64,000 nucleotides of DNA from Candidatus Euphemobacter frigidus (GTDB taxonomy: Bacteria; Auribacterota; Erginobacteria; Erginobacterales; Erginobacteraceae). The position numbers and the translations under genes were made by a program. The stretch covers positions 5,424 through 69,423 of the forward strand of contig JAVCDH010000111.1 of the NCBI GenBank assembly GCA_030765805.1, read 5' to 3'. How positions within the stretch are numbered: position 1 is the stretch's first letter; each line of letters begins with the position of its first letter. Below the pieces are notes generated by a model that searched no databases, was not told the DNA's origin, and saw nothing but the letters and a program-made list of their open reading frames with translations. Below are positions 22,282 to 44,784 of this stretch, one piece after another.

Positions 22282-23679
22282 TTAGATTAAAATTATCCGG
22301 CCGGCCAGGACTTCCCGCAGGCGGGGAACCACGATCGGGATATCCTCGCGTTTCTTCACCGGGAAGAACCGGCCGGATGTCTTCACCGCCAGAGGCTTCA
22401 GGAGTCGGGTGAGGTCTCCCTGGAGACGCTCGAACTGTACGACCGGCAGAACGGTCTCTTGCTCATCGGCCACCTGCTTCAATTCCTTGATCGCCACGTA
22501 GACGGGCAATCGGTCGGTCACTCTCCTTACTTTCTCCACCAGATCTTTCTGGACCAGGTTTTCCAGCTCTTCCCGGTTAATATCGAACAACTGGAGCAGC
22601 GTCTTCACGGATATCGTATAGGCGGCGTTATTGAACTCGGGGATCCGGTCCTGATCGAAATCCAGAGGAAAGGCGAACTCCTCGATCAACTGGGTCCATT
22701 CTTTTCCCCGGACCGGGTCATAGACCCGGGCGAGGGCTCCCCCCTTCTGGCCAGGTGGCTTGGTGGAGACCTCACAGAGAATCCGGATCCCTTCGTCGTG
22801 TCGGAAGGAGAGGAGCCCCGGGAGGACCGGATCGACCAGCGCTCCCAGGTTGTCGATGTTGGAGATCATGATGTATTCCACACCCAGTTTCAACATTTTG
22901 AGGAGCGGGCGGCTCCGGTCCAGAACCAGCCAGAGGGTGGTATCAAGGTGCCCGGGAGGATTATACCGCTTCTTCTCATCCATCGCCTCGATCTCGTCTC
23001 CCGTCCGGCCGCGGAGCTCTTCTATCCAGCCGGCAAGATCGTCTTCGAGAAGCCGTTTCTCCTCTGATAGTGCCTCCCGATCGGCACCGGGAGAAACAGA
23101 GTCGATCTTCCTGGTCAGCCTGGTGATCCTCTTGCCGTAATGGAGTTTCAGATCCGCCTCCGAGGGGATAATTCGTTTCATGATCCCCTGGCAATAGGTA
23201 AAGAGATCGGCCGAGCCGAAATTTTCGTTCTCCCGCAGGATGGCCTTCGTTCTCTCCTCGGTAAAGTAGCTGTTGAGAATCCAGACCGGGATCGCGCCCC
23301 CGAACTCCCGCTCGGCAAACCGGGCATTGGCCAGCTTCAGTTCCATGAAACTGCGCGGACGCCCCTCCATTTCCATGATCGGGAAGGCTCCTTTGGGCAG
23401 GCTCTCCCCCGGCTTCTGAAACCGGGTGGCGGCCCCCCCGTTCATGAAGATGAGGCCGAGTTTTCCCTGCGCGATTATCTCTCTCCCCCGCTCGTACTCT
23501 TCACTCCGGGTTGAGGGGAAATCAGTGCTGTCGGTGGGGAGAGGAAGCCGGACTTCCCAGGGATTATCGTGATTGATCACGTTGCTCCGGAGGCTGAGCC
23601 GGCCTTCGCGGTACTCCTCCTGGAGATAGAGGAATTCACCTTTGTTAAAGCCATATCTTTTGAGCAAGTTTTCCTTCAT
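22282..23679 (-). CDS. UDPGP-family sugar-nucleotide pyrophosphorylase (UTP-glucose-1-phosphate uridylyltransferase / UDP-sugar pyrophosphorylase-like)
   Basis: Nucleotide-binding loop LGLIFMNGGAATRF (compare LNGGLGTxMG). 465 aa, eukaryotic-type UDPGP length. Confidence 0.65.
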   Translation of the reverse strand: MKENLLKRYGFNKGEFLYLQEEYREGRLSLRSNVINHDNPWEVRLPLPTDSTDFPSTRSEEYERGREIIAQGKLGLIFMNGGAATRFQKPGESLPKGAFPIMEMEGRPRSFMELKLANARFAEREFGGAIPVWILNSYFTEERTKAILRENENFGSADLFTYCQGIMKRIIPSEADLKLHYGKRITRLTRKIDSVSPGADREALSEEKRLLEDDLAGWIEELRGRTGDEIEAMDEKKRYNPPGHLDTTLWLVLDRSRPLLKMLKLGVEYIMISNIDNLGALVDPVLPGLLSFRHDEGIRILCEVSTKPPGQKGGALARVYDPVRGKEWTQLIEEFAFPLDFDQDRIPEFNNAAYTISVKTLLQLFDINREELENLVQKDLVEKVRRVTDRLPVYVAIKELKQVADEQETVLPVVQFERLQGDLTRLLKPLAVKTSGRFFPVKKREDIPIVVPRLREVLAGRIILI

Positions 23680-23729
23680 CTAATCCTCCAAGCTAATAAT
23701 ACAAAAACGGTACAACGTGTTTTGTATCA

Positions 23730-24434
23730 TTAGGTGAATTTTAATTTCCAGACTCGGAAAAGGTAGGTGATGAGCACCAAGGAGTTGAGCTTGGAGACAT
23801 CCCGCTCCCTCCGGCGAAAGACAATCGGAAGCTCCACGATCCGGAGGCCGGCCCGGTGACAGCGGTAGAGCACCTCGGTGACGATGAAGGGGTCGGAAGC
23901 CCGCAGGGTCTCCGGTTTGAGCGCCTCCAGCGCCTTCCTTCGGAAGACGCGGTAGCCGGAGGTGGGATCGTTGACCGCGATCCCGAGGATGGTCCGGATA
24001 TAAGACCGAGCCCATCCGCTGATACAATCGCGGAACCATTGCCGGCCCTCCACCGCCCCTCCCGGTATGAACCGCGAGCCGATCACCAGATCGGCTTCGT
24101 CTCGGATGATCGGCTCCAGCAGACGGGGGAGCTCGGCGGGGTTGTGCGATCCGTCCCCGTCCATCTCCACGATACAGTCCGCGCCCAGGTCCAGGGCCCG
24201 GAGAAACCCCTCTCTTCCGGCCCACCCGCGGCCCCGCGGTCCGGGGCGGGAGATGAGATGAACTCTATGGTCGCGAACGGCAATCTTTTTGACAATCTCC
24301 CCGGTCCCATCCGGAGAATTATCATCGACAACCAGGATCTCACAATTATCCAGCGGAAGAGCGAGCAGTTCGGAGATCAGTGAATCGATACTGCCGGCCT
24401 CGTTATAGGTCGGAATCATGACAACGGTCTTCAT
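23730..24434 (-). CDS. GT2-family polyprenol-phosphate mannosyltransferase-like glycosyltransferase (DPM1/Ppm1-like)
   Basis: MIPTYNEAGSI...ILVVDDNSPDGT...VEMDGDGSHNP is the classic DPM-synthase-like GT2 signature. Start taken at MKTVVMIPTYNE (24434). It overlaps the upstream GT9 stop by 1 nt. Confidence 0.8.
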   Translation of the reverse strand: MKTVVMIPTYNEAGSIDSLISELLALPLDNCEILVVDDNSPDGTGEIVKKIAVRDHRVHLISRPGPRGRGWAGREGFLRALDLGADCIVEMDGDGSHNPAELPRLLEPIIRDEADLVIGSRFIPGGAVEGRQWFRDCISGWARSYIRTILGIAVNDPTSGYRVFRRKALEALKPETLRASDPFIVTEVLYRCHRAGLRIVELPIVFRRRERDVSKLNSLVLITYLFRVWKLKFT

Positions 24435-25546
24435 TATATAATTTTCTGAATAGCGTCGAAGACCATTTGCGGAGTAATACTCTCCATGCAGTTCGGCTTC
24501 ACATCGCAGTCGGGAAGATAACAGCATTGGCAGGGGACGGGCGCGACAATCTTCTCCCCCCGTCCGTAGAGCTCTATCTCCGCGGCGGAGGTCGGGCCGA
24601 AGAAGGCCACCACCTTCTTCCCCAGGCCGACCGCGGCATGGAGGGCCAGGGTGTCGGAGGTGACGAGGAGATCGGAGAGGCTCAGCCGGGCAAAGAACGT
24701 CCTCAGGTCGTTATGGCAGCCAGTATCAATGAAGATTCCCCCTCCCCGCTCCAACAGCCAGGCATTCCTCTCTTCTTCCGCCGGGCCCCCGTAGAGGAGA
24801 AGCCGCGCTTCCAACCTTTCCGCACACCGGCGTCCCAGTTCCAGGGTAGCTTCCCGGCTCCATTTTTTGTACTTCCACCGGCGACCGGCACCGGTATTAA
24901 AACCGATAACCGGCTTCTCCCGGCCCAATCGGGCCTCCTCGGCGAACAACTCGGCGCCGCGCATCTCTTCCGGCGTAAGCCTGAGCACGATCTCACCGAC
25001 GGGCGGCGGGAGCCCGACGATCTCGGCCATAATAGCCTGCGCGGTTTTACGGTTGGCTTTCTTCGCGTCGTCGAAGACGCTCATCCTCAGCCATTCCTCC
25101 GCCTCCGGGTTGCAGGTGGAAACGCGTCCCCGTTCATCCAGGGTGAACCCCTTCTTCTCGCCGGACCGCACCAGATTCTGGAGGGATGAACTGAGCGGGG
25201 AGGTGTCCAGATTAATAGAGAGATCAAAACTCTCGGCCAGACAACTTACCAATCCATCCGGCTGCAGGGGAAGTATCCGATCTACATAAGGATTATTAAG
25301 AAAAAGCGGCCGCGATTCCGCGGCGCTTATCCAGGTCAGGTGGCTATCGGGATATTTTTTCTGCAGGCCGGGCAGAATCGAGGTCGTCCGCAGCACATCC
25401 CCTACCGCGTCCAGTTTGATAACCAGTATCTTAATCGAGAACGGGGAGTAATGGGGACAGTCGGCGCATTTGACTCCCTCCCGCTTATGGAAGACGCAGG
25501 GCCGGTCTCCCCGGTAATAGCGGCAGTCTTGGTTAATTATGTCCAT
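24434..25546 (-). CDS. GT9-family (heptosyltransferase-like) glycosyltransferase with Cys-rich N- and C-terminal extensions
   Basis: LVIKLDAVGDVLRTTSILPGLQKKYP...LTWI matches the GT9 N-domain. The N-terminal CRYYRGDRPCVFHKREGVKCADCPH and C-terminal PVPCQCCYLPDCDVKPNC clusters are not usual for RfaC/RfaF. Confidence 0.7.
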   Translation of the reverse strand: MDIINQDCRYYRGDRPCVFHKREGVKCADCPHYSPFSIKILVIKLDAVGDVLRTTSILPGLQKKYPDSHLTWISAAESRPLFLNNPYVDRILPLQPDGLVSCLAESFDLSINLDTSPLSSSLQNLVRSGEKKGFTLDERGRVSTCNPEAEEWLRMSVFDDAKKANRKTAQAIMAEIVGLPPPVGEIVLRLTPEEMRGAELFAEEARLGREKPVIGFNTGAGRRWKYKKWSREATLELGRRCAERLEARLLLYGGPAEEERNAWLLERGGGIFIDTGCHNDLRTFFARLSLSDLLVTSDTLALHAAVGLGKKVVAFFGPTSAAEIELYGRGEKIVAPVPCQCCYLPDCDVKPNCMESITPQMVFDAIQKII

Positions 25547-25581: not shown

Positions 25582-28500
25582 CTACAACCCCCGGAAGATA
25601 GTGGTGATGGTCCCGGGGGCGGAGCGGTAAAGTTTTACCTCCCGGTCAGGGTCGCCGGAGTAGCACCACCGGTGGACGGGATTCGGGTCCGACCAGCTGG
25701 TCCGGTCCCGATGGGTGGCCCGCTCGACGCCTGCCCAGGTCACCTGCAGGCTGGTCCCGTTCACATCCAAGACCACGCCGTTACCCCGCCATTGGGGGAT
25801 CCCCTGGAAGTGCCAGTAAACACTCCCCCGCCGGGAGAGAGTGTCTTTTACCTCGATCCGGCGGTCCCCCTGCTTATAGAGAGTGATCTCCCTGGTCCAG
25901 GTCTTCTTCCCATCCTTAAGTCGGGTAACGCTGCGGGAAAACTTCTCGTTGTTCACCCAGCTTACAAGCTGCGCCGAGGAATATTTTCCCAGGATATCGG
26001 AGATATTGGCTTTTGTCTTGCCGTGGTTAAAGAAGGTCATGGTCAATCCGGTCATGAACTCTTCCGGCCCGTAAGAGAGACTGACAATGTTGTTGGCAAA
26101 GCCGCACTTTCCCGACTTGGCGGCCGGATAAGCCGGGTCCAGCATCAGGAAGAGGGCGTTATCCTCCCAGCCGGTACGGTGAATGATCTTGTCGAGCTGG
26201 ATCTTGAAGGATTTCAGGCTCTCGTCATAGCCATCGGCGATGCTCTTCTTGATCGCCATCGGCCGGTAGATGGCCCGGCTGCCGGTGCGGGCGAGACCGG
26301 GGCGCTGGGGCTGAAGTCCTTCGTTCAGATACCAGTAAAGATAAAGCGGGTTGAGGAGGATCGCGAACGGCCCCCACTGGGGGGCCTCATAGCCGTAGGT
26401 GTTGCGGCCGAAGTCGCCGACCCGGTGGGTCGTCCCGTAGCCGAACATCTCCTGGAGGAGCCACTTGGCCTCCCGGGCCAGCCGGATATGGTCGGGGTTG
26501 CCGTCATCGAGAACCGTGGTGGCCACGGCCAGGGGGGCCATGTAGTGATCGACGTAGTTCTGACGATAGTCCCGCCCATAGGCCGGGTTATAGCCGTTGT
26601 GGGGAAAGGTATCGATAATCCATTCCACCTGGCGGATAAAGTTGCTCTTCCAGGCCACTCCCCACTCGTCCAGATCCGGGATGGTCATCCGGTTGGAGTA
26701 GAGCGCCACCCGGAGCATCTCCCGGATGAAGAGCCCCTGGTAGTGGCGGGAGTTATACGGCAAGGTCCAGGTGTCGTCGTAGCTGAGGAGACGGTTGGCC
26801 CAGGAGATCATCTTGTCTCCCCGCTTGCCGCCGACGATATAACCGACTACGGCGTTGAGGCCGCAGACGATCCCCTGGGCATAGTTGCCGTGATTATAGA
26901 AGCCCCGTTTTTCGATCGCCAGCCGGTAGAACTTCTCTTCAATCTCTACCCGCTCTTCCTTGCTGAAGAACCCCTCACCCAGCATCGCCAGGTAGGCCTC
27001 GGCCACATCGGCGATGTAGCGACAGTGCTCCTCGCCCCCCCAGTCGAATTTCGTGTCCCGGATCAACTCCAGAAGCTTCTCCTTGAAGTATCTCCCGGTC
27101 GGTTTATAGCCGGTAACCAGGTATATAAACGCGGTGTTGGGGAGGTAGTCGTAGAGGGCATACTTCTTATCCACCTTGCTGAGATCCCATTCATAGATCT
27201 TGAAGTAATGACCATTCGCAAAATCGATCCAGTCGACGTAATCCTGGAGCCGGAGGTCCACATCGTAAGCGGAAGCCCCGGCAACGAGGCCGTAGGCGGA
27301 TCCGAGCGGCTGCTGGCTGTTCCTCGCGCCCGGTGTCCCGTAACTTCCGGAGGAGCCGTAGACCTTGCTGGTCGGCGCCGTGTTCCAGTTACCGGCGCTC
27401 CCGGGGATTGCCGGGTCGATCCGCTCCATCGAGTACCCCGGATCCCCCGCGAACCAATTGCCGGCGCAGTTGACCGTGTCCACGCTGGCGGCGCTTGAAT
27501 CCACCAGAACCAGATGGCCCCCGCTGCTGTTCATCTGCTTATTGAGATAGGTCATGTTGCCGATTGCACCGCTGGGAGAGTTGGTCGACAGGACAAAGTA
27601 CCCGCCGCCTGCAATCGAATAAGAGCTGGAGAACGATATAGGAGACCAGGCAGCGGAGTCATCCCTCAGCTTCCATCCGTCCAGGCTGACAGTGGAGGTT
27701 CCGTTATTATAAAGCTCGATCCACTGCTGGTCGGTACCGTCGAAAGTCCCACCCCAGGCGATCTCGTTGATGACCACATCCCCGGTGGTTCCGGGGGAAC
27801 CGGTGGGACCAGGGACCGCCGACGGCGTCGGAACCGGTGTCGGGGGCGGCGAGGGCGTGGTGAGGAGGATGTTGAAGAACTCAAGGTAGACCTTCTTGTA
27901 GGTCTCCTGGAGAAGCGGGTAGTTGAGTGTCTCCTTGTGCGGGTCATACGGCTCCGCCGGGGGCTTCCACTCGTAGACGGGTGGGGTGGGGTTCAGGACC
28001 GGGAACGCGTCCTCCTCGTCCCCGCCGGAGGGTGATCCCTCTCCTGAAGGGGTGGGACCCGGGATCCAGTCGGATGGATCCTTCGATGCCGGCGTCGGAG
28101 TCGTCACCACCTCGGCCCGGGATCCCGCGGGGGGGGCTTGCCAGACGTAGATGTTCCCGTCCCGGGCCGCCCCGAAGATCTGCTCCCCGTCGAGATAGAC
28201 CCACTGCATCGACTGCTTGGCCTCGTCGATCACTCCGTAGAGGCTCAGTCCCGGCTTCCGCCAGATGTAGATACCGTTATCGAGGCTCGACCCGTAGATA
28301 TAATTACCGCCGGAGACGACGGAAGTCACCTGGTTGAGGGGCTCGGCCAGGATCTTCTCCAAACGAAACGATCCATAATCCCAGAGGTAGATATTGCTGT
28401 CCGCTGAAGCTCCGTAGATGTAATCATTATCCGCCCGGACCGCGTTCAGGTCGTCGGTCGGGCCGGCCAGGATCTTTTTCAGGTTGAAGGTTGTCCGATC

Positions 28501-35920: not shown

Positions 35921-36010
35921 AATGACAGCTAATTTATTGCTTCCGAGTCACAATATTTAAATTCCAGATAAATGTCTCTACACAGATACTCGTCCCCTGT
36001 GCGAGCACCC

Positions 36011-36529: not shown

Positions 36530-36556
36530 TAGTCACCAGTCACCGGTCACCAGTCC

Positions 36557-37086: not shown

Positions 37087-38307
37087 CTATGCTACCACCT
37101 GGCTCATCTGAAAGATGGGCAGGAGAATTGAGAGAACGATATATCCGATCACTATCCCCATGGTCACTATCATGATCGGCTCCAGCAGCGAGGTCATCGC
37201 GCTGACCGACGTCTCGACCTCATCCTCATAAGACTGGGCGATCTTCTCCAGCATCGCCTCCAGGGCTCCGCTGGTCTCTCCCACCGAGATCATATGCACC
37301 ACGATCGGGGGAAAGACCCGGCTCTTTCGGAAGGGACCGGCGACGGATTGACCGGCCCGTATCGCTTCAATGGCTTTTCCGATCGCTTGAGCGATCGAGG
37401 TGTTATTTACTATATTCCTGACAATGCCCAGCGACTCGATCAGGGGGGCTCCGCTTGAGAGCAGGGTGGCCAAGGTCCGGCTGAACCTGACCACCGCGAT
37501 CTTCCTGATCAGGGGACCAAAGAGGGGGAGACGAAGTTTGAGTCGGTCGAGAAAGAACCTTCCCCGGGGCCCTTTCTTCCAGAAAGCGAAAAGAAAATAC
37601 AGCCCTCCGGCGATGAGGATGATCACCCACCAGTACCCCCGGATAAAATCGCTGATATTAAGGAGGATGACGGTGGGAAGAGGCAGGGCCTGCTGGGTCT
37701 CGGCAAAGATGCTGGTAATGGTGGGGACTACATTTACTAAAAGAAAGATGATCACCGCAACGCTGATAAAGGCCACCAGGATCGGATATACCATCACACT
37801 CCTGATATGATTACGCATCTTTACGTTCTTCTCGGTGAGGTCGGCCAGCCGCTCCAGAACCACGTCCAGAGCGCCGGCCGCTTCCCCGGCCTGAATCATG
37901 TTGGTATAAAGAGGAGAGAAGACCCGGGGGAATCGCCGGAGTGATTCGGCGAAGTTTTTCCCGGCATTGACATCGTCGCGAACTTTGATGATCACCCGCT
38001 TCAGGGGACTCTTCTCCAGCTGATCGATCAGAGCGTTCAGTGACTGGACCAACTGGAGGCCGGAACTGAGAAGCGTAGCCATCTGGCGGGTAAAGACCGC
38101 CACATCCCCGGCCTTGACCCGGTGGAGAAGCCGCGAGAGAGCCAGGTCGCTTCTCAGATCAACCTTCTCTCCCGACTCCCGGACCTCGGTCGGAAAGATC
38201 CCCTGCCGGCGCAATTTGGCCCGGGCATCGGCGGAGCTGTCGGCATCGATGATGCCGGTTACCTGCTCGCCCCCGCTGTTCAATGCTTTGTAGTCGAAGA
38301 CTGGCAT
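37087..38307 (-). CDS. gspF: type II secretion system inner-membrane platform protein GspF
   Basis: 406 aa with two GspF-domain repeats and three TM segments. The N-terminus MPVFDYKALNSGGEQVTGII is a classic GspF/PilC start. Confidence 0.9.
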   Translation of the reverse strand: MPVFDYKALNSGGEQVTGIIDADSSADARAKLRRQGIFPTEVRESGEKVDLRSDLALSRLLHRVKAGDVAVFTRQMATLLSSGLQLVQSLNALIDQLEKSPLKRVIIKVRDDVNAGKNFAESLRRFPRVFSPLYTNMIQAGEAAGALDVVLERLADLTEKNVKMRNHIRSVMVYPILVAFISVAVIIFLLVNVVPTITSIFAETQQALPLPTVILLNISDFIRGYWWVIILIAGGLYFLFAFWKKGPRGRFFLDRLKLRLPLFGPLIRKIAVVRFSRTLATLLSSGAPLIESLGIVRNIVNNTSIAQAIGKAIEAIRAGQSVAGPFRKSRVFPPIVVHMISVGETSGALEAMLEKIAQSYEDEVETSVSAMTSLLEPIMIVTMGIVIGYIVLSILLPIFQMSQVVA

Positions 38308-38423: not shown

Positions 38424-40142
38424 TCAAGCTTCTATGATATCCTCCTGGGTTACCCGGATAACCTCTTCGATAGTCGTGATCCCTTCAACGACCTTCCGGG
38501 CCCCGTCCATCCGGAGAGTCAACATCCCCTTCTTCAGGGCCACTTTCTTGATCTCTCCGGTATTGGTCCGCTCCAGGATCATCCGGCGGATATCCTCGTC
38601 CACCAGGAGGATCTCGAAGATACCGCTCCTCCCCATATAACCGGATTGAAAGCACTTATCGCATCCCTTCCCCCGGTAGAGTTTCCCCTCCGAGATATCA
38701 TCCGGGGAGAGCCCGATCTCGCGGAGGGACTCTTCACCGGGATGATAGCTTTCCCGGCAGTGCGGACAGATCATCCGAACCAACCGTTGAGCCATGATCC
38801 CTACCACCGAGGATGAGACCAGGTACGGCTCCACCCCCATATCGATGAGCCGGGTTATCGCCCCCGCCGCGTCGTTGGTATGGAGGGTGGAGAAGACCAG
38901 ATGCCCGGTGAGACTGGCCTGGATCGCGATCTCGGCGGTCTCATTATCCCGCATCTCCCCGATCAGGACCACGTCGGGGTCTTGCCGGAGGATCGAGCGG
39001 AGTCCGTTGGCGAAGGTGAGACCGATCTTGGGTTTTACCTGAATCTGGCCGATCCCGGGGATCTGATACTCAATCGGATCCTCGACCGTGATGATATTCT
39101 GCTCCATCGAGTTCACGTTGCTCAAGGCCGCGTATAGGGTGGTAGTCTTGCCGGAACCGGTCGGGCCGGTTACCAGGATGATGCCGTGGGAGAGCTTGAT
39201 CAGCCGGGAGAAGAGCGCCAAGCGATCATCACTCATTCCCAGATCGTGAAGGCTGTAAAGCTGGGCGGACCGGTCCAGCAACCGGAGTACGATTCTTTCC
39301 CCGAATGAGATCGGGATTGTGGAAACACGCAGGTCAATCTCCCGGTCGGTGATCTTAATTTTAATCCGGCCGTCCTGGGGAAGGCGTTTCTCGGCGATAT
39401 TCAGGTTAGCCATGATCTTAACCCGGGAAGTGATCGCGGACTGGTACTGCTTGGACGGCTTGATCGATTCATAGAGGATGCCGTCTATCCGGTAACGCAC
39501 CCGGAGCTCTTTTTCATAGGGCTCGATGTGGATATCGCTGGCCCGGACTTTGACGGCTTCAAAGAGAATCAGATTGACCAGCTTGATCACCGGAGCCTTG
39601 GTGGCGATGTCCAGGAGATCTTCCGCCTCATCAGTCAGGGTCACCAGTTCAGTGATTTCCTCTTCCTCCATCCCCTCCAGCATCGCCTCGGCGGCGCCGT
39701 CGGCATGGCCGTATGAATGGTTGGCGACCCTGATGATCTCATCAGGGGCACAGACGACCGGGTGCACTTCCTTCTCCAGCAAAAGACGGAGGTCGTCCAG
39801 GGGCTGAAGCTCGAGAGGGTTGGCCATGGCCACGGCGACCGTTCCCTTCTCTTCCTTAAGCGGGATCAGCTGATGGGCCAACAAAAAATTCAGCGGGATG
39901 CGGGAGACGATCTCCTTATCCACCATCTCCACCGAGAGCGAATCGAGATAGGGGAGATTCAGATGACGGCTCAGCGCCCGACGATACTGTTCCTGATTGA
40001 TAACCCCCATCCCGAACAAGATATCACCCAGTTGTTTCCCCTGGTCAGGGCCTTCCTGGCGCGACCGGGCCGTATCGAGGACCGCCCGATCCACCACTTT
40101 ATCGGCCAGTAAAATCTCTTCGATTGATTGATTCGCAATCAT
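38424..40142 (-). CDS. gspE: type II secretion system ATPase GspE
   Basis: Walker A motif LVTGPTGSGKTTTLYAAL. N-terminal MshEN/T2SE_N domain. C-terminal zinc-binding tetracysteine CPHC...CDKC. 572 aa. Confidence 0.95.
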   Translation of the reverse strand: MIANQSIEEILLADKVVDRAVLDTARSRQEGPDQGKQLGDILFGMGVINQEQYRRALSRHLNLPYLDSLSVEMVDKEIVSRIPLNFLLAHQLIPLKEEKGTVAVAMANPLELQPLDDLRLLLEKEVHPVVCAPDEIIRVANHSYGHADGAAEAMLEGMEEEEITELVTLTDEAEDLLDIATKAPVIKLVNLILFEAVKVRASDIHIEPYEKELRVRYRIDGILYESIKPSKQYQSAITSRVKIMANLNIAEKRLPQDGRIKIKITDREIDLRVSTIPISFGERIVLRLLDRSAQLYSLHDLGMSDDRLALFSRLIKLSHGIILVTGPTGSGKTTTLYAALSNVNSMEQNIITVEDPIEYQIPGIGQIQVKPKIGLTFANGLRSILRQDPDVVLIGEMRDNETAEIAIQASLTGHLVFSTLHTNDAAGAITRLIDMGVEPYLVSSSVVGIMAQRLVRMICPHCRESYHPGEESLREIGLSPDDISEGKLYRGKGCDKCFQSGYMGRSGIFEILLVDEDIRRMILERTNTGEIKKVALKKGMLTLRMDGARKVVEGITTIEEVIRVTQEDIIEA

Positions 40143-40152
40143 TTTTTGTAAC

Positions 40153-42417
40153 TTATTTATGGAACCGCCCGGTGCCTTTCTGATCTTCCTCGCTCTCGTC
40201 GTGACGCCCGAAAGAGATATTCGGGAGACTGTCCAGGAAGGAGCGCGAGGTAGAACTTTTCCCGACGGGTTTCATTTCAGAGTCCCCACCGGCAGGAGCG
40301 ATGGGAAGTTCATCTGGAGGCGGGAGGGCGCGGTGCGCTTCTTCATAATCCTTCATAGCCCCCAGTTGCAAGGCGTAACTGGCCTTCAGATCCTGGTATT
40401 TCATTGCTTCTTTCTTCTGCGTTTCTCTCTCCCGGTCGGCCATCTCGGACTCCCGTCCCTTTATCCGGGAGTCGAGCTCCGGAGCCTGATGACGCTTGAG
40501 ATTGGTCAGGTCGGCAATCTGCTGGGTGGTCCGCACCACTCGGGGGGTAATAAAGATCAGGAGGTTATTCTTCTCCTTCCGGGTGGAGGTCTGCCGGAAG
40601 AGGTTGCCAATAAGCGGGATGTCACCCAGGATCGGAATCTTGCTTTCGGCCTCGTACCAGTCGTCCCGAATCAGCCCCCCGATCACTATGGTATGGTTGT
40701 CCTTCACGATCACCGATGTCTCGGTCTCCCGGTCGAAGGTCTCCGGAGTAAGAGTTACCCCGCCACTCACTTCACCACTGGTCAGGCTGGATATCTTCTG
40801 GTGGATCTCCATCCGCACCATCTGGGCCTTGCTGATATGGGGGGTTATCGTCAGCTCAATCCCGACATCCTTGTATTCGATATCCTGATAATCACGGCTA
40901 TCAGTACTCCCGATCTCGATCTTGCTCACGTAGGGAATGTTCCGTACCACCTTGATCTTTGCCTCCTCGTTGTCCATCGTCAGGACCTGGGGGGTGGCCA
41001 GGATGTTGACGTCCGAGTTGGTCTGGAGGGCGTGGAGCATGACCGCGAAGTCGGGAAGGCTGGTGCCCGTGCCGGCCATCTTCTGAATAAACCCCAGTGA
41101 GAGGCCGTCTATACCCGGTGATTGGTGCCCTCCCTCAGCGTCGGTGGCCCAGCTGGAAAGGGCGCCGCTAAAGACCGACTGGGCCATCCCCTCCGCGTTG
41201 TTCCGGCCGGTTCCCATAGTCGCGATATCAGGAAATCCGGTGCCGTCATTGTCCATGTCGATCCAATCCACACCCAGCTCGAATGTCTTATCATAGGCGA
41301 TCTCGGCGATCAGAACCTCCACCAGGACCTGGTCGCGGACCACGTCCAGCTTCTGGATGATCTTAATCAGGTCGGCGTAGGCTTCCTGGGTGGCATCGAT
41401 GATCAGGGCGTTGGTCCCCTTGTCTTCGCTGATCAGGGCCGGCTCCTCTCCGCCTTTTGGTTTGCGCTTGGAGACGATGCTGTTGAGGACCTTGGCCATA
41501 TCCTCGGCATTAGTATTTTTAAGAAAGTAGACATGGATATTGCTCCGTTCGGTCTCCACATCCAGCCGTTTGATCAGGTCCAGAACCCGCTTGGTGTCTT
41601 CATCGTTGGCCAGGATAATCAGGGAGTTGGTCCGTTCGTCGGGGATAATCTTGAGATTCTTCTCACTGGTCTGGAGCTGGCCGGCCTTCTGCCGTCTGCG
41701 GGGGGTGGGGGGAGCGCCCGGGACCTTGCCCGCTTCCTCGATCACCTGCGAGAGCTCCCCGGCCAGGATGTCGGCCGCCGCGTAACGGATGGGGACAACG
41801 GTGATCCTGGTTTCATAACCGGGGATATCGAGCTCCTTGATGATCTTGACGAGGCGGTGGATATTGGAGGAGATGTCGGTGACGATCAGGGTGTTGGTAA
41901 CCGGGTAGGCGATCACGCTGGAATCTTTCGAGAAGAGCTGGCCCAGCGCCGTCCGTACTTTCTGCACGTCCGCGTACTGGAGGGGGATGAGCTGAGTAAT
42001 GATCGTGTCCTCCGGAACGATCTGCTCCAGATTATCTCCCACCGACATGGCGATATTCCTCTTGCTCGCTTCCTTCTTGGTGGAGATTTTGATCACCTTG
42101 CCGGAGGGGACGGTGACAAAGCCGCGAACCTCCAGGATCGACTCGAATACTTTATAGACTTCGTCCAGGGGGATCTTGGTTGGGGAGATGACCGTAACCG
42201 GACCGCGGACGTTCTGATCGATAATGAAGTTCTTTCCGGTCAGGTCACTGATATACTTAATCACCACTCGGATCTCGGTATTTTCAAAGTCCATGCTGAC
42301 GAGCCCATCTTCCTCCTCAAACCCGCCGGTTTGAGCCCGCCCCAAGCCTTGAGATATCAGTAACCCGAGGAGAAGCCCCAGCCAGATCGCAACAATCAAT
42401 TTTCGCAAATATTTCAT
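40153..42417 (-). CDS. gspD: type II secretion system secretin GspD
   Basis: 754 aa with signal peptide, N0-N3 domains and the C-terminal secretin domain (ILGDIPLIGNLFRQTSTRKEKNNLLIFITPRVV). Confidence 0.9.
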   Translation of the reverse strand: MKYLRKLIVAIWLGLLLGLLISQGLGRAQTGGFEEEDGLVSMDFENTEIRVVIKYISDLTGKNFIIDQNVRGPVTVISPTKIPLDEVYKVFESILEVRGFVTVPSGKVIKISTKKEASKRNIAMSVGDNLEQIVPEDTIITQLIPLQYADVQKVRTALGQLFSKDSSVIAYPVTNTLIVTDISSNIHRLVKIIKELDIPGYETRITVVPIRYAAADILAGELSQVIEEAGKVPGAPPTPRRRQKAGQLQTSEKNLKIIPDERTNSLIILANDEDTKRVLDLIKRLDVETERSNIHVYFLKNTNAEDMAKVLNSIVSKRKPKGGEEPALISEDKGTNALIIDATQEAYADLIKIIQKLDVVRDQVLVEVLIAEIAYDKTFELGVDWIDMDNDGTGFPDIATMGTGRNNAEGMAQSVFSGALSSWATDAEGGHQSPGIDGLSLGFIQKMAGTGTSLPDFAVMLHALQTNSDVNILATPQVLTMDNEEAKIKVVRNIPYVSKIEIGSTDSRDYQDIEYKDVGIELTITPHISKAQMVRMEIHQKISSLTSGEVSGGVTLTPETFDRETETSVIVKDNHTIVIGGLIRDDWYEAESKIPILGDIPLIGNLFRQTSTRKEKNNLLIFITPRVVRTTQQIADLTNLKRHQAPELDSRIKGRESEMADRERETQKKEAMKYQDLKASYALQLGAMKDYEEAHRALPPPDELPIAPAGGDSEMKPVGKSSTSRSFLDSLPNISFGRHDESEEDQKGTGRFHK

Positions 42418-42428
42418 TATAAATAAGA

Positions 42429-43403
42429 TTATTCCAGCTCCAAAAGCTCAACCTGAACCATGTACTCCAGTTGGAGGAGTTCTGATTGCCTTTTTATCTC
42501 CACGATCACGGTCTTTTCGGTCTGAACCTCCTGGAGCAGTTCCAGGGCTCTCTTCTTCCCGGTGATCATCTTCTCGTTTACCGTACGAATAATGTCTCCC
42601 TTCTTGATCCCCAGATAGGTCGAGAGATGGCGCGGAGGCAGAATCAGTATCTCGTACCCCTCGGAGTCTCCCCGCCGGGGTTTTCCCGGCGGATAATACG
42701 GGCGGCAACCGACACCGCTCAACGCCTTCATAATCTGGGCGACCACTTCATCGACCTTGACCTTGATCTGATCTACTTTGATATATTTCCAGAGACCTTT
42801 CTTGCTGACGAGCCATTTATTATTAGCGATCAACTGCCAGAGACCTTTCTTGCTGATCAGCCATTTGTTCTTACCGACCGGGCGAAGAATGCGAGAGAGG
42901 GGAATGGATCCCTTATTAACCTTGATGCTATCTTTAAACGCGGTTAAGGTAAAGACATTCCCCTTGAAATCCATGACTACCTGGTTTCGCTCGATCTCCA
43001 GCACTACCGCCTCGGCTACCGAGTCTCCCACCCGGTAAGAGTCCTGTTTTTTATTCACAACCTCCTCAATAAAGGCCAAACTTTTCGACTGATCGGCCCG
43101 GACCGTCGTTCCCAGTAGATTTAATTTGGGGGGAGGAACTTCCTGCGGCCTGGGGGTGGGCGGAGGCGCTTCCTCCGGGGCGGCAAACTTCTCTCTCCAA
43201 AGATCGCGGGAAACGATTACTTCATAATACGATTCCCCGGGCGGAGTAGGGACCGCCTCGGCCTCTATCGATTGGTCGGGGGAAGCCCAGTCATCTTCAA
43301 CCGGTCGGTCCTGGTAATACGTCCAGGCCAGGTAACCGCTTCCGGTCACCAGCAGGACAGCCAGTACCAGGTTGATCAACATTATTTTTCTTCGAGACAA
43401 CAT
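42429..43403 (-). CDS. gspC: type II secretion system protein GspC (TM anchor, HR domain, C-terminal PDZ-like domain) with an internal 11-aa tandem duplication
   Basis: N-terminal TM helix, a Pro-rich linker, an HR-like domain (LNLLGTTVRADQSKSLAFIEE...YRVGDSV) and a C-terminal PDZ (GYEILILPP...GIKKGDIIRTVN). Contains the duplicated peptide NKWLISKKGLW/NKWLVSKKGLW. Confidence 0.6.
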   Translation of the reverse strand: MLSRRKIMLINLVLAVLLVTGSGYLAWTYYQDRPVEDDWASPDQSIEAEAVPTPPGESYYEVIVSRDLWREKFAAPEEAPPPTPRPQEVPPPKLNLLGTTVRADQSKSLAFIEEVVNKKQDSYRVGDSVAEAVVLEIERNQVVMDFKGNVFTLTAFKDSIKVNKGSIPLSRILRPVGKNKWLISKKGLWQLIANNKWLVSKKGLWKYIKVDQIKVKVDEVVAQIMKALSGVGCRPYYPPGKPRRGDSEGYEILILPPRHLSTYLGIKKGDIIRTVNEKMITGKKRALELLQEVQTEKTVIVEIKRQSELLQLEYMVQVELLELE

Positions 43404-43421
43404 AAGTTGATCCAGGTCAGC

Positions 43422-44156
43422 TCAATTTAGGTTAAATTTGTCGATCTCATCCAGCAGCGCCACCGGGTCTACTTCCGGAGGTAGACTGAGTGCTTCCTCC
43501 TCCCGTCCCCGTCCGCTCCGGAGAATCAGCCAGAATTTATCGTGCAGATCCCTCACTATTAAACGGGACGCCGGAGGGAGATCTGAATTTTCCAGGAGAT
43601 AATTCGCCCGCCCCTGGAGGTCCCGGGAGACAATCTCCGACAGAACCGATCCCCAGGTATTATAAGTCCCTTCCCGGATCCCGCCAAGAATATTCCTGGT
43701 CTCTTTTAGGTAATCTTTCAGAGTTTTCGTCGGATCGGGCAGCGGCAGTAACTGCCGTGAAAACGCACTGGCCGAGCGCGCAGCCGCCGGGCCTTCCGTC
43801 CGGTCCGGTCCGGAGGATTCCCGAAGGAAAAGAAAGAGGCCAACCCCCGCGATCAAGGCTGCCGCCGCGGCCAGGGGGGAGAGGTGCCGAAAGTTAAGAA
43901 GGAGGTCCGATAACCGGAGTCCACCGGGCCGGGGGCGAGAGGCGGCTTCCCGGAGCACATTACGGGAAAGGCGAAGAGGAAAAGACAGTCGTTCCAGGGC
44001 CTCCAGGGACTGCCAAGCAGCCCGGGTCTCCTCATAGCACCGGCGGCACTGTGAGCAGCGCGCCAGATGTTTCCGGATCTCATCTTCCACCGAATCCGGT
44101 AACGGCTCTCCCAGGACCCGGTCAAGCAAGTATTCTCTTATCCTGTCACATTTCAT
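43422..44156 (-). CDS. anti-sigma factor, zinc-finger (zf-HC2) type, membrane-spanning
   Basis: The N-terminus CDRIREYLLDRVLGE...HLARCSQC matches the C-x27-H-x3-C-x2-C zinc finger of RsrA/ChrR-like anti-sigma factors. A central TM helix (AAAALIAGVGLFLFL) is present. The start overlaps the sigma-factor stop by 11 bp. Confidence 0.65.
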   Translation of the reverse strand: MKCDRIREYLLDRVLGEPLPDSVEDEIRKHLARCSQCRRCYEETRAAWQSLEALERLSFPLRLSRNVLREAASRPRPGGLRLSDLLLNFRHLSPLAAAAALIAGVGLFLFLRESSGPDRTEGPAAARSASAFSRQLLPLPDPTKTLKDYLKETRNILGGIREGTYNTWGSVLSEIVSRDLQGRANYLLENSDLPPASRLIVRDLHDKFWLILRSGRGREEEALSLPPEVDPVALLDEIDKFNLN

Positions 44157-44742
44157 TATGATCTTCCCCGGTGAACATTTTCTTTCTCAGATGCTCCAGC
44201 GCGTAATGAAGCCGGGAGCGGACCGTCCCGGAGGGAATCCCCAGAATCCGCGCGATCTCACGGTACTTCAGCCCGCTGAGACGGTTCATGATCACCACCT
44301 GCCGATGTTCCTCGGAGAGGCCGGCCAGCTTACGCCGGAAGATAGCCTCCAGTTCCCTCCCTCCGGCCTCTTCACGGGGTCCGGGCCCCTCTCCGCCGAC
44401 GGTTTCGATCATTCTACCTACCGGAACGCCGTCCGGCCCCTTTATCTCGGTCTCCAGAGAGAGGGTGGGCTTCCGCCTCGACTTCCGGAGAGCGTCCCGG
44501 CAGCGGTTCATGGCAATCGCGTAAAGCCAGGTTTTGAAGCCGGCACCGGACCGGAACCGCCGCGCTTCGCGATAAATCCGGATAAAAGTTTCCTGAAATA
44601 TGTCCTCCGCCAGGTGATAGTCTCTAACTACGGAACAAATAAAGGCCATCAAAGGATTGCGATATTGGTTCAGAAGTTCTTCCAAAGCAGAGAGATCTCC
44701 ATTTTTGCATAACTCAATTAATTGCTCATCCGTTTGAGCCAT
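44146..44742 (-). CDS. ECF-subfamily RNA polymerase sigma-70 factor
   Basis: Region 2 (LMAFICSVVRDYHLAEDIFQETFIRIY, FKTWLYAIAMNRCRD) and region 4 (VVIMNRLSGLKYREIARILGIPSGTVRSRLHYAL) are both recognisable. Start taken at MAQTDEQ, with SD aaggagag 5 nt upstream. Confidence 0.85.
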   Translation of the reverse strand: MAQTDEQLIELCKNGDLSALEELLNQYRNPLMAFICSVVRDYHLAEDIFQETFIRIYREARRFRSGAGFKTWLYAIAMNRCRDALRKSRRKPTLSLETEIKGPDGVPVGRMIETVGGEGPGPREEAGGRELEAIFRRKLAGLSEEHRQVVIMNRLSGLKYREIARILGIPSGTVRSRLHYALEHLRKKMFTGEDHNEM

Positions 44743-44756
44743 TATCTCTCCTTTAA

Positions 44757-44784
44757 TACGCCCAGTATGGGAATTAAGTTCAAA
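44757..44784 (-). promoter_or_regulatory. candidate ECF-type autoregulatory promoter (TGAACTT-N16/17-CGTA) upstream of the sigma-factor gene
   Basis: The minus-strand sequence reads tttgaacttaattcccatactgggcgtatt, ending 14 nt before the SD. It resembles SigW/ECF consensus promoters (TGAAAC-N16-CGTA). Confidence 0.4.

What the first reader, a model, noticed from the sequence alone, without database searches (positions are those of the whole stretch)
22282..44784. 22-kb colinear cluster: ECF sigma / anti-sigma -> complete T2SS (gspC-M) -> 1756-aa secreted LTD/beta-propeller protein -> three glycosylation-type enzymes
Nineteen consecutive minus-strand genes with small gaps or overlaps form what looks like one transcriptional unit. 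In order they are an ECF sigma factor, a zf-HC2 membrane anti-sigma factor, the canonical gspCDEFGHIJKLM set, a giant secreted protein starting 32 bp after gspM, then GT9, GT2 (Ppm1-like) and a UDPGP pyrophosphorylase. T2SS operons are not normally headed by their own ECF sigma/anti-sigma pair, and normally do not carry an obvious cargo gene plus glycosyltransferases in cis. The arrangement suggests a signal-controlled, dedicated secretion system for one very large, possibly glycosylated exoprotein.
Basis: partly seen in the sequence, partly recalled or inferred. Interest (0 to 1): 0.85.

Follow-up and report, generated by a model that had tools for sequence, protein, structure and literature searches.

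The report
ECF-sigma-headed T2SS operon with giant cargo
An uncultured Antarctic-lake bacterium (Ca. Euphemobacter frigidus, phylum Auribacterota) has a protein-secretion machine whose genes sit behind their own on/off switch and in front of one huge, probably sugar-polymer-cutting, secreted protein; this arrangement is conserved in its relatives, but the three sugar-transfer genes next door are ordinary cell-envelope genes and not part of it.

Summary
The genes are real, but there are 17, not 19. The window comes from Ca. Euphemobacter frigidus (Auribacterota, PVC group).

Supported:
- The order ECF sigma, ZAS-type membrane anti-sigma, gspC-M, giant exoprotein is a conserved module. Sigma/anti-sigma precede gspC in every relative with upstream sequence (11 loci; gspC down to 38% identity).
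- The giant gene follows gspM in six further lineages, while both outer flanks are rearranged.
- An ECF-type promoter (TGAAC-N16/17-CGTAT) lies 6-13 nt before the sigma start codon in 6 of 6 loci. It is the only intergenic match in the 64-kb window.
- The giant protein has a signal peptide, two WD40 propellers and a lamin-tail domain. Its C-terminal domain has no Pfam match, and its low-confidence model matches only heparinase II/III-like polysaccharide lyases.

Not supported:
- GT9, GT2 and UDPGP are not part of the unit. In relatives two genes, one on the opposite strand, separate them from the giant gene, or they are absent.
- GT9 has about 50%-identical orthologues in other phyla, in LPS-core contexts without a T2SS.
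- Co-orientation is weak evidence, because every gene from 20.3 to 64 kb is on the minus strand.

Precedents exist: P. aeruginosa vreAIR-hxc-lapA and E. coli yghJ(sslE)-gsp. This is a new variant of a known kind. Interest is moderate.

The parts
44756..44782 (-). ECF-type promoter: -35 TGAAC (44782-44778), 17-nt spacer, -10 CGTAT (44760-44756). It ends 13 nt before the sigma ATG.
   Evidence: The same -35/-10 pair, with otherwise unalignable spacer sequence, lies 6-13 nt upstream of the sigma start in L024, L025, L026, L028 and L029. A second copy precedes the anti-sigma gene in L028 and L029. There are 11 matches in 281 kb of loci, 7 of them at these positions. It is the only intergenic match in the window.
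44146..44742 (-). ECF (group IV) sigma factor, 198 aa from ATG 44742
   Evidence: Sigma70_r2 at 7e-18, Sigma70_r4_2 at 3e-15, and TIGR02937 sigma70-ECF at 110.6 bits against a cut-off of 42.9. Orthologue alignments begin at this Met.
43422..44156 (-). Single-pass membrane anti-sigma factor (ZAS type). It overlaps the sigma gene by 11 nt.
   Evidence: zf-HC2 hit. H30-x3-C34-x2-C37 is invariant in 8 orthologues. A TM segment lies at about aa 92-112. The roughly 130-aa periplasmic C-terminal domain is conserved and matches no known family.
42429..43403 (-). gspC (T2SSC HR domain plus PDZ), 18 nt after the anti-sigma gene
   Evidence: PF11356 at 34.2 bits (cut-off 27). NF041515 GspC_delta at 1e-22, below its cut-off.
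40153..42417 (-). gspD secretin
   Evidence: TIGR02517 at 512 bits against a cut-off of 351.
38424..40142 (-). gspE ATPase
   Evidence: TIGR02533 at 723 bits against a cut-off of 630. The PilB model scores below its cut-off.
37087..38307 (-). gspF platform protein
   Evidence: TIGR02120 at 461 bits against a cut-off of 424.
36557..36967 (-). gspG major pseudopilin
   Evidence: TIGR01710 at 109.5 bits against a cut-off of 88.9.
34713..36529 (-). gspH (36011-36529), gspI (35435-35920) and gspJ (34713-35438), the minor pseudopilins
   Evidence: All three carry N_methyl motifs. Their best hits are GspH/XpsH, XpsI/gspI and gspJ/T2SSJ, all below curated cut-offs.
33231..34610 (-). gspK-like minor pseudopilin
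   Evidence: NF037980 T2SS_GspK at 5e-30 (105 bits, cut-off 130).
31492..33120 (-). gspL-like protein (PilM-type cytoplasmic domain plus PilN-type periplasmic domain)
   Evidence: PilM_2 at 5e-24, PilN at 7.5e-4, TIGR01709 gspL at 3e-7.
30885..31421 (-). gspM-like protein
   Evidence: Assigned by position plus a weak NF040576 GspM hit at 8e-5. There is no Pfam hit.
25582..30852 (-). 1756-aa exoprotein and putative T2SS cargo. Sub-features, approximate and by eye:
- signal peptide, aa 1-33 (30852-30754)
- WD40 propeller 1, aa ~240-560 (30135-29173)
- WD40 propeller 2, aa ~626-910 (28977-28123)
- LTD, aa 1022-1128 (27789-27469)
- polysaccharide-lyase-like (alpha/alpha) toroid plus beta-sandwich, aa ~1196-1756 (27267-25585)
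- Pro/Thr-rich linkers between the domains
22282..25546 (-). Neighbours that are not part of the module: GT9 (24434-25546), GT2 polyprenyl-phosphate-sugar-synthase-like (23730-24434) and a UDPGP-family pyrophosphorylase (22282-23679)
   Evidence: Pfam. In relatives they lie 1.5-2.5 kb beyond the giant gene, separated by two genes, or are absent. GT9 orthologues sit in LPS-core contexts in other phyla.

Best explanation
This is a lineage-conserved secretion module of Auribacterota.

Proposed mechanism:
1. An ECF sigma factor is held inactive at the inner membrane by a ZAS-type, single-pass anti-sigma factor (shown by domain content).
2. An unknown periplasmic cue releases the sigma factor (inferred).
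3. The sigma factor transcribes from its own TGAAC-N17-CGTAT promoter (motif shown; activity inferred).
4. The anti-sigma gene overlaps the sigma gene, and gspC, gspD and gspE follow with gaps of 18, 11 and 10 nt. The same transcript therefore most likely runs into the T2SS genes and on to the gene 32 nt after gspM (inferred).
5. That gene encodes a Sec-exported, 1756-aa multidomain protein. Its C-terminal domain is an unannotated member of the heparinase II/III-like polysaccharide-lyase fold class. It is the probable T2SS substrate, with the propellers and LTD serving as binding or spacer modules (inferred).

GT9, GT2 and UDPGP are envelope-glycan (LPS-core-type) genes. They abut the module in this species only because two genes present in relatives are missing here.
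For: Identity of the parts.

Sigma/anti-sigma linkage to the T2SS:
- Sigma, anti-sigma and gspC-D... keep their order in all 11 metagenomic loci that carry upstream sequence (L020-L031). gspC identity falls to 38% and anti-sigma identity to 30%.
- The DNA upstream of sigma differs between loci: M10 protease in the same orientation, inverted, 7 kb away, or replaced.

Giant gene linkage to gspM:
- gspI-M followed by the giant gene is seen in L009, L011, L012, L013 and L016.
- It is also seen in the more distant L036, where the C-terminal domain is 46% identical.
- There are no counter-examples among the multidomain (giant-type) homologues that have upstream sequence.

Promoter:
- The ECF -35/-10 motif lies 6-13 nt before the sigma start in 6 of 6 loci.
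- It is duplicated before the anti-sigma gene in 2 loci, and no other intergenic copy exists in the window.

Anti-sigma factor: HxxxCxxC is invariant and the periplasmic domain is conserved.

Cargo-like features:
- N-terminal signal peptide and Pro/Thr-rich linkers, and an LTD.
- Two independent fold searches return only (alpha/alpha) toroid plus beta-sandwich polysaccharide lyases or epimerases at the top.
- A distant family member carries Laminin_G_3 and a dockerin.
- A stand-alone homologue sits in a glycan-biosynthesis cluster.

Precedent for ECF control of a neighbouring T2SS and its substrate gene: PMC2729926.
Against: - There are no expression or secretion data.
- The ECF motif occurs only at the head of the module. 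T2SS and cargo expression from it therefore depends on read-through across gaps of up to 119 nt here and up to about 520 nt in relatives. Those gaps carry repeat and hairpin elements.
- The relatives all belong to one candidate phylum, so part of the conservation is shared ancestry. PEPCK and GH38 are also syntenic in some loci.
- The structural model is of low confidence (pLDDT 54), and catalytic residues were not mapped.
- Whether the genome holds other T2SS loci or other substrates could not be checked. Several nearby FG-GAP-bearing hydrolases and a protease are also plausible substrates.
Confidence: 0.6

Rival explanations
1. General-purpose T2SS. The locus encodes the organism's only, housekeeping T2SS, which exports many exoproteins. 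The giant protein is one substrate among many, or simply a conserved neighbour. The ECF pair tunes secretion capacity or envelope stress rather than a single cargo.
For: - The cluster follows the canonical gspC-M order, and GspD, E, F and G score above equivalog cut-offs.
- The window also encodes signal-peptide or extracellular-type enzymes. These are an M10 protease with FG-GAP directly upstream, GH38 with FG-GAP, GH5 with FG-GAP, a cyclophilin with a signal peptide, and a 987-aa protein with CarboxypepD_reg repeats.
- Homologues of the FG-GAP module recur beside the T2SS locus in relatives.
Against: The gspM-to-giant adjacency is the only cargo-like linkage that survives in all lineages examined. 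The FG-GAP proteins move around. This rival differs from the best explanation only on the word 'dedicated'.
Confidence: 0.3
2. All 17 genes form one signal-controlled transcript, and GT9, GT2 and UDPGP glycosylate the giant cargo.
For: - In this genome the giant-to-GT9 gap is 35 nt, GT9 and GT2 overlap by 1 nt, and the GT2-to-UDPGP gap is 50 nt.
- No strong terminator was found after the giant gene.
- The Pro/Thr-rich linkers are the kind of sequence that is often O-glycosylated (my knowledge, not tested).
- GT9-GT2-UDPGP follow the module at a distance in 5 relatives, and UDPGP does so in L036.
Against: - In every relative that keeps them nearby, a roughly 225-aa gene and an opposite-strand gene of 155 to about 370 aa lie between the giant gene and the GT genes.
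- L016, L017 and L018 lack the GT genes downstream. L036 has UDPGP without GT9 or GT2.
- GT9 has more than 3000 homologues, with about 50% identity across phyla. In L033 it lies in a cluster with SIS, PfkB+CTP_transf_like, GT2, GT9, GT4 and Wzy_C genes. I read SIS as GmhA-like and PfkB+CTP_transf_like as HldE-like (my inference). In L034 it forms a GT9-GT2 pair with no T2SS.
- The best PDB sequence matches are GT9 entry 3tov, WaaF and WaaC. TibC did not appear.
- No GT-C (periplasmic) transferase was identified in the cluster.
Confidence: 0.08
3. Coincidental synteny. The sigma/anti-sigma pair regulates itself and unrelated genes elsewhere. Its position before gspC, and the giant gene's position after gspM, are inherited gene order without functional coupling.
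For: - All comparisons lie within one candidate phylum.
- Housekeeping neighbours such as PEPCK are also partly syntenic.
- No ECF-type promoter was found directly before gspC, the giant gene or other cluster genes.
- Gaps of 250-520 nt carrying repeat elements separate the anti-sigma gene from gspC in some relatives.
Against: - Both outer flanks are rearranged repeatedly, while the two internal junctions are never broken.
- In the window the anti-sigma-to-gspC gap is 18 nt, with no terminator-like site between them.
- ECF sigma genes typically sit next to their targets (PMC7826278; PMC2729926).
Confidence: 0.1

Closest known systems
Pseudomonas aeruginosa PUMA3/Vre system with the Hxc T2SS and LapA (vreA-vreI-vreR, PA0674-0676; hxc, PA0677-0687; PA0688)
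   Same: An ECF sigma/anti-sigma pair is encoded immediately next to a complete T2SS cluster and the gene for its substrate. Over-producing the sigma factor induces the hxc genes and PA0688 (PMC2729926).
   Different: - By my knowledge, VreR is a FecR-type regulator that works with a TonB-transducer-like receptor fragment, VreA (cell-surface signalling). Here the anti-sigma is a ZAS (HxxxCxxC) protein with an unrelated helical periplasmic domain, and no VreA-like gene is present.
- Here the sigma pair is co-oriented with gspC and lies 18 nt upstream, so it appears to head the same operon.
- The cargo is a 1756-aa polysaccharide-lyase-like protein, not a small phosphatase.
- The phylum is different.
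E. coli T2SS-beta operon yghJ(sslE)-pppA-yghG-gspC-M
   Same: A large exoprotein is encoded in the same cluster as a T2SS that has been described as dedicated to it (PMC3707838 and PMC5012682). Its length of about 1500 aa is from my knowledge. It acts on glycans or mucin.
   Different: - The cargo gene lies upstream of gsp rather than downstream.
- The cargo is an M60-like metalloprotease lipoprotein.
- The prepilin peptidase and pilotin are in the operon.
- There is no ECF sigma/anti-sigma pair.
ECF sigma factors that control other secretion systems (HrpL/ECF32 with T3SS; SigP with T9SS; EcfK with T6SS)
   Same: An ECF sigma factor is genetically linked to, and drives, a dedicated secretion apparatus (PMC7826278; PMC13147305 abstract).
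   Different: The secretion systems and the input mechanisms differ (two-component systems, Ser/Thr kinase). None is a T2SS operon headed by a ZAS anti-sigma pair.
Heparinase II/III-like polysaccharide lyases with (alpha/alpha) toroid plus beta-sandwich (PL12, PL15, PL17, PL33, PL35) and dermatan-sulfate epimerase
   Different: - There is no sequence-level match to any Pfam, NCBIfam or PDB family.
- Only 22 representative clusters exist in 1.84 billion proteins.
- Catalytic residues and substrate are unknown.
- The domain is fused behind two WD40 propellers and an LTD.
LPS-core heptosyltransferases (GT9: WaaC/WaaF), for the adjacent GT9 gene
   Same: PF01075 hit. The best solved homologues are GT9 entry 3tov, WaaF and WaaC. 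A 51%-identical orthologue sits with ADP-heptose-pathway-type genes and a Wzy_C ligase gene.
   Different: This subfamily carries conserved N-terminal (DCx5DxPCxFHK...CxxC) and C-terminal (CxCCY...C) cysteine clusters. I am not aware of these in WaaC or WaaF, and I did not compare them. All scores are below the NCBIfam equivalog cut-offs.

Membership tests
Type II secretion system (Gsp) | GspD-type secretin with N0 and Secretin_N domains | tested here: met
   TIGR02517 at 512 bits against a cut-off of 351. Pfam finds type_II_gspD_N0, three Secretin_N domains and Secretin.
Type II secretion system (Gsp) | GspE ATPase, GspF platform protein and GspG major pseudopilin | tested here: met
   TIGR02533 at 723 bits (cut-off 630), TIGR02120 at 461 (cut-off 424), TIGR01710 at 109.5 (cut-off 88.9). 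The PilB and PilQ models score below their cut-offs.
Type II secretion system (Gsp) | GspC (HR domain plus PDZ), a T2SS-specific component | tested here: met
   PF11356 T2SSC at 34.2 bits against 27, plus a PDZ domain.
Type II secretion system (Gsp) | Minor pseudopilins GspH-K and assembly proteins GspL/M | tested here: inconclusive
   The best hits are the expected families in the canonical order, but all fall below curated cut-offs. GspM is assigned mainly by position.
Type II secretion system (Gsp) | Prepilin peptidase (GspO/PilD) | tested here: not met
   No Peptidase_A24 hit among the cluster genes or the other window ORFs of 150 aa or more. In other bacteria it is often encoded elsewhere (my knowledge), so this does not exclude a working T2SS.
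Type II secretion system (Gsp) | Secretion of folded periplasmic substrates across the outer membrane | not testable with these tools
   This needs a secretome comparison of wild type and mutant.
ECF (group IV) sigma factor with class I anti-sigma | Sigma-2 and sigma-4 domains only | tested here: met
   Sigma70_r2 and Sigma70_r4_2, 198 aa, TIGR02937 above its cut-off.
ECF (group IV) sigma factor with class I anti-sigma | Co-transcribed anti-sigma factor with an N-terminal anti-sigma domain (here ZAS HxxxCxxC) and a TM helix | tested here: met
   The genes overlap by 11 nt. zf-HC2 scores 21.3 bits, just under the 22.2 cut-off. The H30/C34/C37 motif is invariant in 8 orthologues, followed by a hydrophobic segment.
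ECF (group IV) sigma factor with class I anti-sigma | Autoregulatory promoter with an AAC -35 element and a CGT -10 element | tested here: met
   TGAAC-N16/17-CGTAT is conserved in position in 6 of 6 loci. Activity was not tested.
Vre/Hxc-type cell-surface signalling | FecR-type anti-sigma plus a TonB-transducer-like receptor component (VreA) | tested here: not met
   The anti-sigma factor hits only zf-HC2, and there is no VreA-like gene between M10 and gspC. The locus may work like Vre/Hxc but is not a member.
Heparinase II/III-like polysaccharide lyases | (alpha/alpha)n toroid followed by an antiparallel beta-sandwich | tested here: inconclusive
   The predicted secondary structure and both fold searches agree. 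However, the model has mean pLDDT 54 and comes from an 8-sequence alignment.
Heparinase II/III-like polysaccharide lyases | Sequence membership in a known PL or Pfam family, and catalytic Tyr/His/Asn-Arg residues | tested here: not met
   There is no Pfam, NCBIfam or PDB sequence match; the best PDB E-value is 0.56. The catalytic-residue half of this feature was not tested: invariant Y, H, N and R columns exist but were not mapped onto an active site.
LPS heptosyltransferase (GT9), for the neighbouring gene | GT9 fold or Pfam hit, and a genomic link to ADP-heptose and LPS-core genes | tested here: inconclusive
   PF01075 is met. The 51%-identical orthologue in L033 lies with SIS, PfkB+CTP_transf_like, GT4 and Wzy_C genes. 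In the window itself no heptose-pathway gene is adjacent, and scores are below the equivalog cut-offs.

The most novel reading that the evidence does not exclude
The module is a self-contained sense-and-secrete device for a polysaccharide.
- The conserved periplasmic domain of the anti-sigma factor, which belongs to no known family, would detect either breakdown products of the target polymer or the load on the T2SS or its cargo.
- Detection would release the ECF sigma factor, which would then drive one operon encoding both a dedicated T2SS and its single giant substrate.
- That substrate would be the founding member of a new polysaccharide-lyase family.

Functionally this would be an Auribacterota counterpart of the ECF/anti-sigma-controlled polysaccharide utilisation loci of Bacteroidota or the sigmaI/RsgI cellulosome switches. 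It would be built around a T2SS.
Probability: 0.2. Interest if true: 0.6.

Novelty: new variant of a known kind. Interest (0 to 1): 0.42.

Why it matters
T2SS regulation and substrate choice are known almost only from Proteobacteria.

This locus offers a compact, conserved and testable case in an uncultured PVC-group phylum. It has one promoter motif, one sigma/anti-sigma pair, eleven gsp genes and one obvious candidate substrate.

It also flags a rare, unannotated protein family with a polysaccharide-lyase-like fold. Only about 22 clusters exist in 1.84 billion representative proteins. The family could be a new carbohydrate-active enzyme family relevant to carbon turnover in anoxic waters.

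The finding does not overturn anything. ECF-linked T2SSs and cis-encoded T2SS cargo both have precedents.

Tried and rejected
- **Sigma-70 promoter and intrinsic-terminator scans across the cluster.** Counts were at shuffle background, so they are uninformative.
- **Folding of every intergenic spacer.** Only the gspF/G spacer (z = -2.6) and the short giant/GT9 spacer (z = -2.6) stand out. Neither has a U-tract, so no terminator is called.
- **Additional ECF-type promoters inside the cluster or elsewhere in the window.** None is intergenic. None lies before gspC, the giant gene or the GT genes in relatives.
- **GT9 as a protein (autotransporter-type) heptosyltransferase.** I considered this because of the cysteine clusters. 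I rejected it because the best solved relatives are LPS-type GT9 enzymes, TibC did not match, and the same cysteine motifs occur in orthologues from other phyla in envelope-glycan contexts.
- **Type IV pilus instead of T2SS.** Rejected. GspC with PDZ is present, GspD, E, F and G score above T2SS cut-offs, and the PilB and PilQ models score below theirs. I did not search for PilT.
- **Distant GspC locus L032 (21% identity, high GC).** It has no sigma pair upstream. It is too remote to be informative.
- **Sequence-profile search of the C-terminal domain against PDB.** Nothing significant.
- **AFDB Foldseek library.** Unavailable.
- **Rfam and tRNA scans of the window.** Empty.
- **Search for the two 'spacer' genes of relatives in the window.** Absent.

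Full report
**Source and observation**

The 1756-aa protein is encoded identically on NCBI contig JAVCCQ010000067.1 of assembly GCA_030765385.1 and on several metagenome contigs. The gspC and GT9 products are named by NCBI as Candidatus Euphemobacter frigidus. This is an Auribacterota (PVC group) MAG from Ace Lake, Antarctica (PMC9324843). That paper does not mention a T2SS.

ORF listing and Pfam/NCBIfam scans confirm the gene content, but there are 17 genes rather than 19:

| Gene | Window coordinates (minus strand) |
|---|---|
| ECF sigma | 44146-44742 |
| zf-HC2 anti-sigma | 43422-44156 |
| gspC | 42429-43403 |
| gspD | 40153-42417 |
| gspE | 38424-40142 |
| gspF | 37087-38307 |
| gspG | 36557-36967 |
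| gspH | 36011-36529 |
| gspI | 35435-35920 |
| gspJ | 34713-35438 |
| gspK | 33231-34610 |
| gspL-like | 31492-33120 |
| gspM-like | 30885-31421 |
| 1756-aa protein | 25582-30852 |
| GT9 | 24434-25546 |
| GT2 | 23730-24434 |
| UDPGP | 22282-23679 |

- GspD, E, F and G exceed their NCBIfam equivalog cut-offs, and GspC exceeds the Pfam cut-off. GspH-M are best hits below cut-off.
- No prepilin peptidase was found in the window.
- Junctions range from an 11-nt overlap to a 119-nt gap.
- Co-orientation is not distinctive. Every credible gene from 20299 to 63955 is on the minus strand, including PEPCK, a PPIase, a Met-aminopeptidase and DeoC.
- Consensus promoter and terminator scans are at background level.

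**Is the sigma/anti-sigma pair tied to the T2SS?**

I aligned gspC homologues and scanned metagenome contigs with the alignment. I then mapped all window proteins onto the 14 loci found.

- Every locus with sequence upstream of gspC (L020-L031) has the anti-sigma gene directly before gspC. Wherever the sequence reaches far enough, the sigma gene lies before that.
- This holds down to 38% gspC identity and 30% anti-sigma identity.
- The DNA upstream of sigma is not conserved. The M10 protease is adjacent and co-oriented in the window and L025, inverted and displaced in L024, 7 kb away in L026, and replaced in L029.
- The only very distant GspC (L032, 21% identity) has no sigma pair, but it is too remote to count.

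**A conserved ECF promoter**

The sequences upstream of the sigma start codons share only a TGAAC (or TCAAC) element, a 16-18-nt spacer and CGTAT. This is the classical ECF -35 'AAC' / -10 'CGT' architecture (my knowledge).

- The motif ends 6-13 nt before the ATG in the window, L024, L025, L026, L028 and L029.
- In L028 and L029 a second copy lies 9 nt before the anti-sigma gene.
- Across 281 kb of fetched loci the pattern occurs 11 times, and 7 of these are at those positions.
- In the window the strict pattern has one intergenic match, at 44782-44756.
- This places the sigma start at ATG 44742.
- No copy precedes gspC, the giant gene or the GT genes. If the sigma factor drives the T2SS, it therefore does so by read-through.
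- Read-through is plausible in the window, where sigma and anti-sigma overlap and 18-, 11- and 10-nt gaps lead to gspC, gspD and gspE.
- It is less certain in relatives. Their anti-sigma/gspC spacers reach about 520 nt and hold hairpin and repeat elements.
- The anti-sigma alignment shows an invariant HxxxCxxC motif, a TM segment and a conserved periplasmic domain of about 130 aa with no family match.

**Is the giant protein tied to the T2SS?**

The word-indexed search with the LTD plus C-terminal part found only seven full-domain homologues. An alignment-based scan of one genome per species found ten loci.

- Mapping shows gspI-M immediately followed by the giant gene in L009, L011, L012, L013 and L016.
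- The remaining loci start too close to the gene to tell.
- A more distant homologue (46% identity, GCA_003551625.1) shows gspD-M followed by the giant gene again.
- The gspM-to-giant gap varies from 32 nt in the window to about 240 nt.
- No giant-type (multidomain) homologue with upstream sequence lacks the T2SS.
- A stand-alone 662-aa homologue of the C-terminal domain (38% identity by tblastn) sits in a glycan-biosynthesis cluster without a T2SS.

**What is the giant protein?**

- The sequence shows an N-terminal signal peptide, Pro/Thr-rich linkers and a twice-repeated motif of about 45 aa.
- It has two WD40-type propellers and an LTD (59 bits).
- The C-terminal region of about 560 aa has no Pfam, NCBIfam or PDB sequence match.
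- An AlphaFold2 model from the 8-sequence alignment is of low confidence (pLDDT 54, pTM 0.61). It clearly shows a helical-hairpin region followed by a beta-sandwich.
- The first 37 Foldseek hits are all PL15, PL35, PL33, PL12, PL17 or PL8 lyases or the epimerase.
- An exhaustive phmmer search of 1.84 billion representatives finds only 22 clusters.
- Distant members also lack Pfam hits. One carries Laminin_G_3 and a dockerin.
- My reading is an extracellular polysaccharide-lyase-like enzyme of an undescribed family. The fold assignment is tentative and the chemistry is untested.

**Are the glycosylation genes part of the unit?**

No.

- In L009, L010, L011/L035, L013 and L015, GT9-GT2-UDPGP lie 1.5-2.5 kb beyond the giant gene. 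Two conserved genes lie in between: a protein of about 225 aa on the same strand, and a protein of 155 to about 370 aa on the opposite strand.
- L036 has the two spacer genes followed by UDPGP, without GT9 or GT2.
- L016 and L018 have the spacer genes and then unrelated genes. L017 has unrelated genes directly.
- The spacer genes are absent from the whole window. The tight giant/GT9 junction is therefore most simply a deletion specific to this species.
- GT9 has more than 3000 homologues, at about 50% identity in Thermodesulfobacteriota, Ignavibacteria and others.
- In a Syntrophobacteraceae contig it lies with SIS, PfkB+CTP_transf_like, GT2, GT4 and Wzy_C genes, an LPS-core-type context. In another bacterium the GT9-GT2 pair occurs with no T2SS.
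- Its best solved relatives are LPS-type GT9 enzymes, not TibC.

**Comparison with known systems**

- In P. aeruginosa, vreA-vreI-vreR lies immediately upstream of the Hxc T2SS genes and the substrate gene PA0688, and VreI induces them (PMC2729926).
- E. coli yghJ(sslE)-pppA-yghG-gspC-M places a large glycan-active cargo in the operon of a T2SS described as dedicated.
- ECF sigma factors linked to T3SS, T9SS and T6SS are documented. The main text of the ECF re-classification paper mentions no T2SS-linked group.
- The present locus differs in four ways. It has a ZAS-type anti-sigma with a novel periplasmic domain and no CSS receptor. The pair sits at the head of the gsp operon. The substrate candidate is a giant lyase-like protein. 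The phylum is different.

**Verdict**

- The best-supported model (confidence about 0.6) is an autoregulated ECF/anti-sigma switch that heads a T2SS operon ending in its probable giant substrate. GT9, GT2 and UDPGP are unrelated envelope-glycan neighbours.
- Whether the T2SS is dedicated or general remains open.
- This is a new variant of a known kind and is moderately interesting (0.42). Its value lies mainly in being a clean, testable T2SS regulation and cargo case in an uncultured phylum, and in pointing to a possibly new polysaccharide-lyase family.

Noticed in passing
window 38315-38386, 33182-33223, 37068-37075, 60880-60923; also 1740-1787, 36531-36555, 57785-57874, 63108-63220: Many intergenic spacers hold short tandem arrays of 7-10-nt units. 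CACTTTAG(N1-2) occurs 7.4 times in the gspE/F gap, 4.4 times in the gspK/L gap and 4.7 times at 60.9 kb. That is 15 exact octamer hits against 0.7 expected. Other heptamer arrays occur elsewhere. The arrays are not specific to the T2SS locus, and their function is unknown.
   Followed up: partly
L024 9477-10000; L026 9540-10000: In relatives the anti-sigma/gspC spacer is expanded to 440-520 nt. The inserts are AT-rich elements with inverted repeats (for example ...ACCACGAAGGACACGAAG...CTTCGTGTTCTTCGTAG...) and tandem copies. They look like small mobile or repeat elements inserted inside the operon.
   Followed up: no
window 10974-13424 (+), 16026-19820 (+), 44982-46493 (-); L024 6943-7713, L029 4697-5509, L011 20257-21012, L017 3362-4225: Three different enzymes near the T2SS end in FG-GAP repeat modules: GH5 cellulase-like, GH38 mannosidase-like and an M10 metalloprotease. 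Homologues of the GH38 C-terminal FG-GAP module recur beside the T2SS or giant locus in relatives. The module could be a shared surface-anchoring or secretion-related tag for exoenzymes. This was not tested.
   Followed up: partly
L009 12000-13160; L010 6438-7589; L011 11501-13440; L013 11406-12591; L015 10088-11266; L016 11186-11929; L018 2819-4527; L036 14781-16541: A conserved gene pair follows the giant gene in all relatives but is missing from the window. One gene encodes a protein of about 225 aa with an internal duplication (motifs RTDEAYLVDLGQGKVWIP and ETDRAYL...IWFPKR) and no signal peptide. The other is an opposite-strand gene encoding a protein of 155 to about 370 aa that starts MAxQRLKVDPExIDLM. 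Neither has a confident Pfam match.
   Followed up: partly
window 24434-25546 (-): The GT9 enzyme belongs to a subfamily found in several phyla. It has a conserved N-terminal cysteine cluster (DCx5(D/N)xPCxFHKx6CxxC(P)HY) and a C-terminal CxCCYx3Cx5-6C cluster, which suggests a metal or Fe-S site. I am not aware of these in classical WaaC or WaaF and did not compare them.
   Followed up: partly
window 25582-30852 (-), aa ~118-165 and ~955-1000: A motif of about 45 aa (...YDPHK(K/E)(S/T)L(S/N)Y(S/P)LL(E/Q)xxY(R/K)xVYLE(L/F)F...) occurs twice. Each copy lies in a Pro/Thr-rich linker, the first ahead of WD40 propeller 1 and the second ahead of the LTD. It matches no family.
   Followed up: no
window 47426-49267 (-): A 613-aa protein with an N-terminal TM segment is syntenic with the PPIase and M10 protease upstream of the sigma gene in L025. 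It has no Pfam or NCBIfam hit.
   Followed up: no
window 13477-15363 (-) and 4083-7046 (-): A TonB-dependent-receptor-like barrel lies among the glycoside hydrolases, and a 987-aa protein with seven CarboxypepD_reg repeats and a PDZ domain is also present. The neighbourhood is rich in envelope and exoprotein genes.
   Followed up: no
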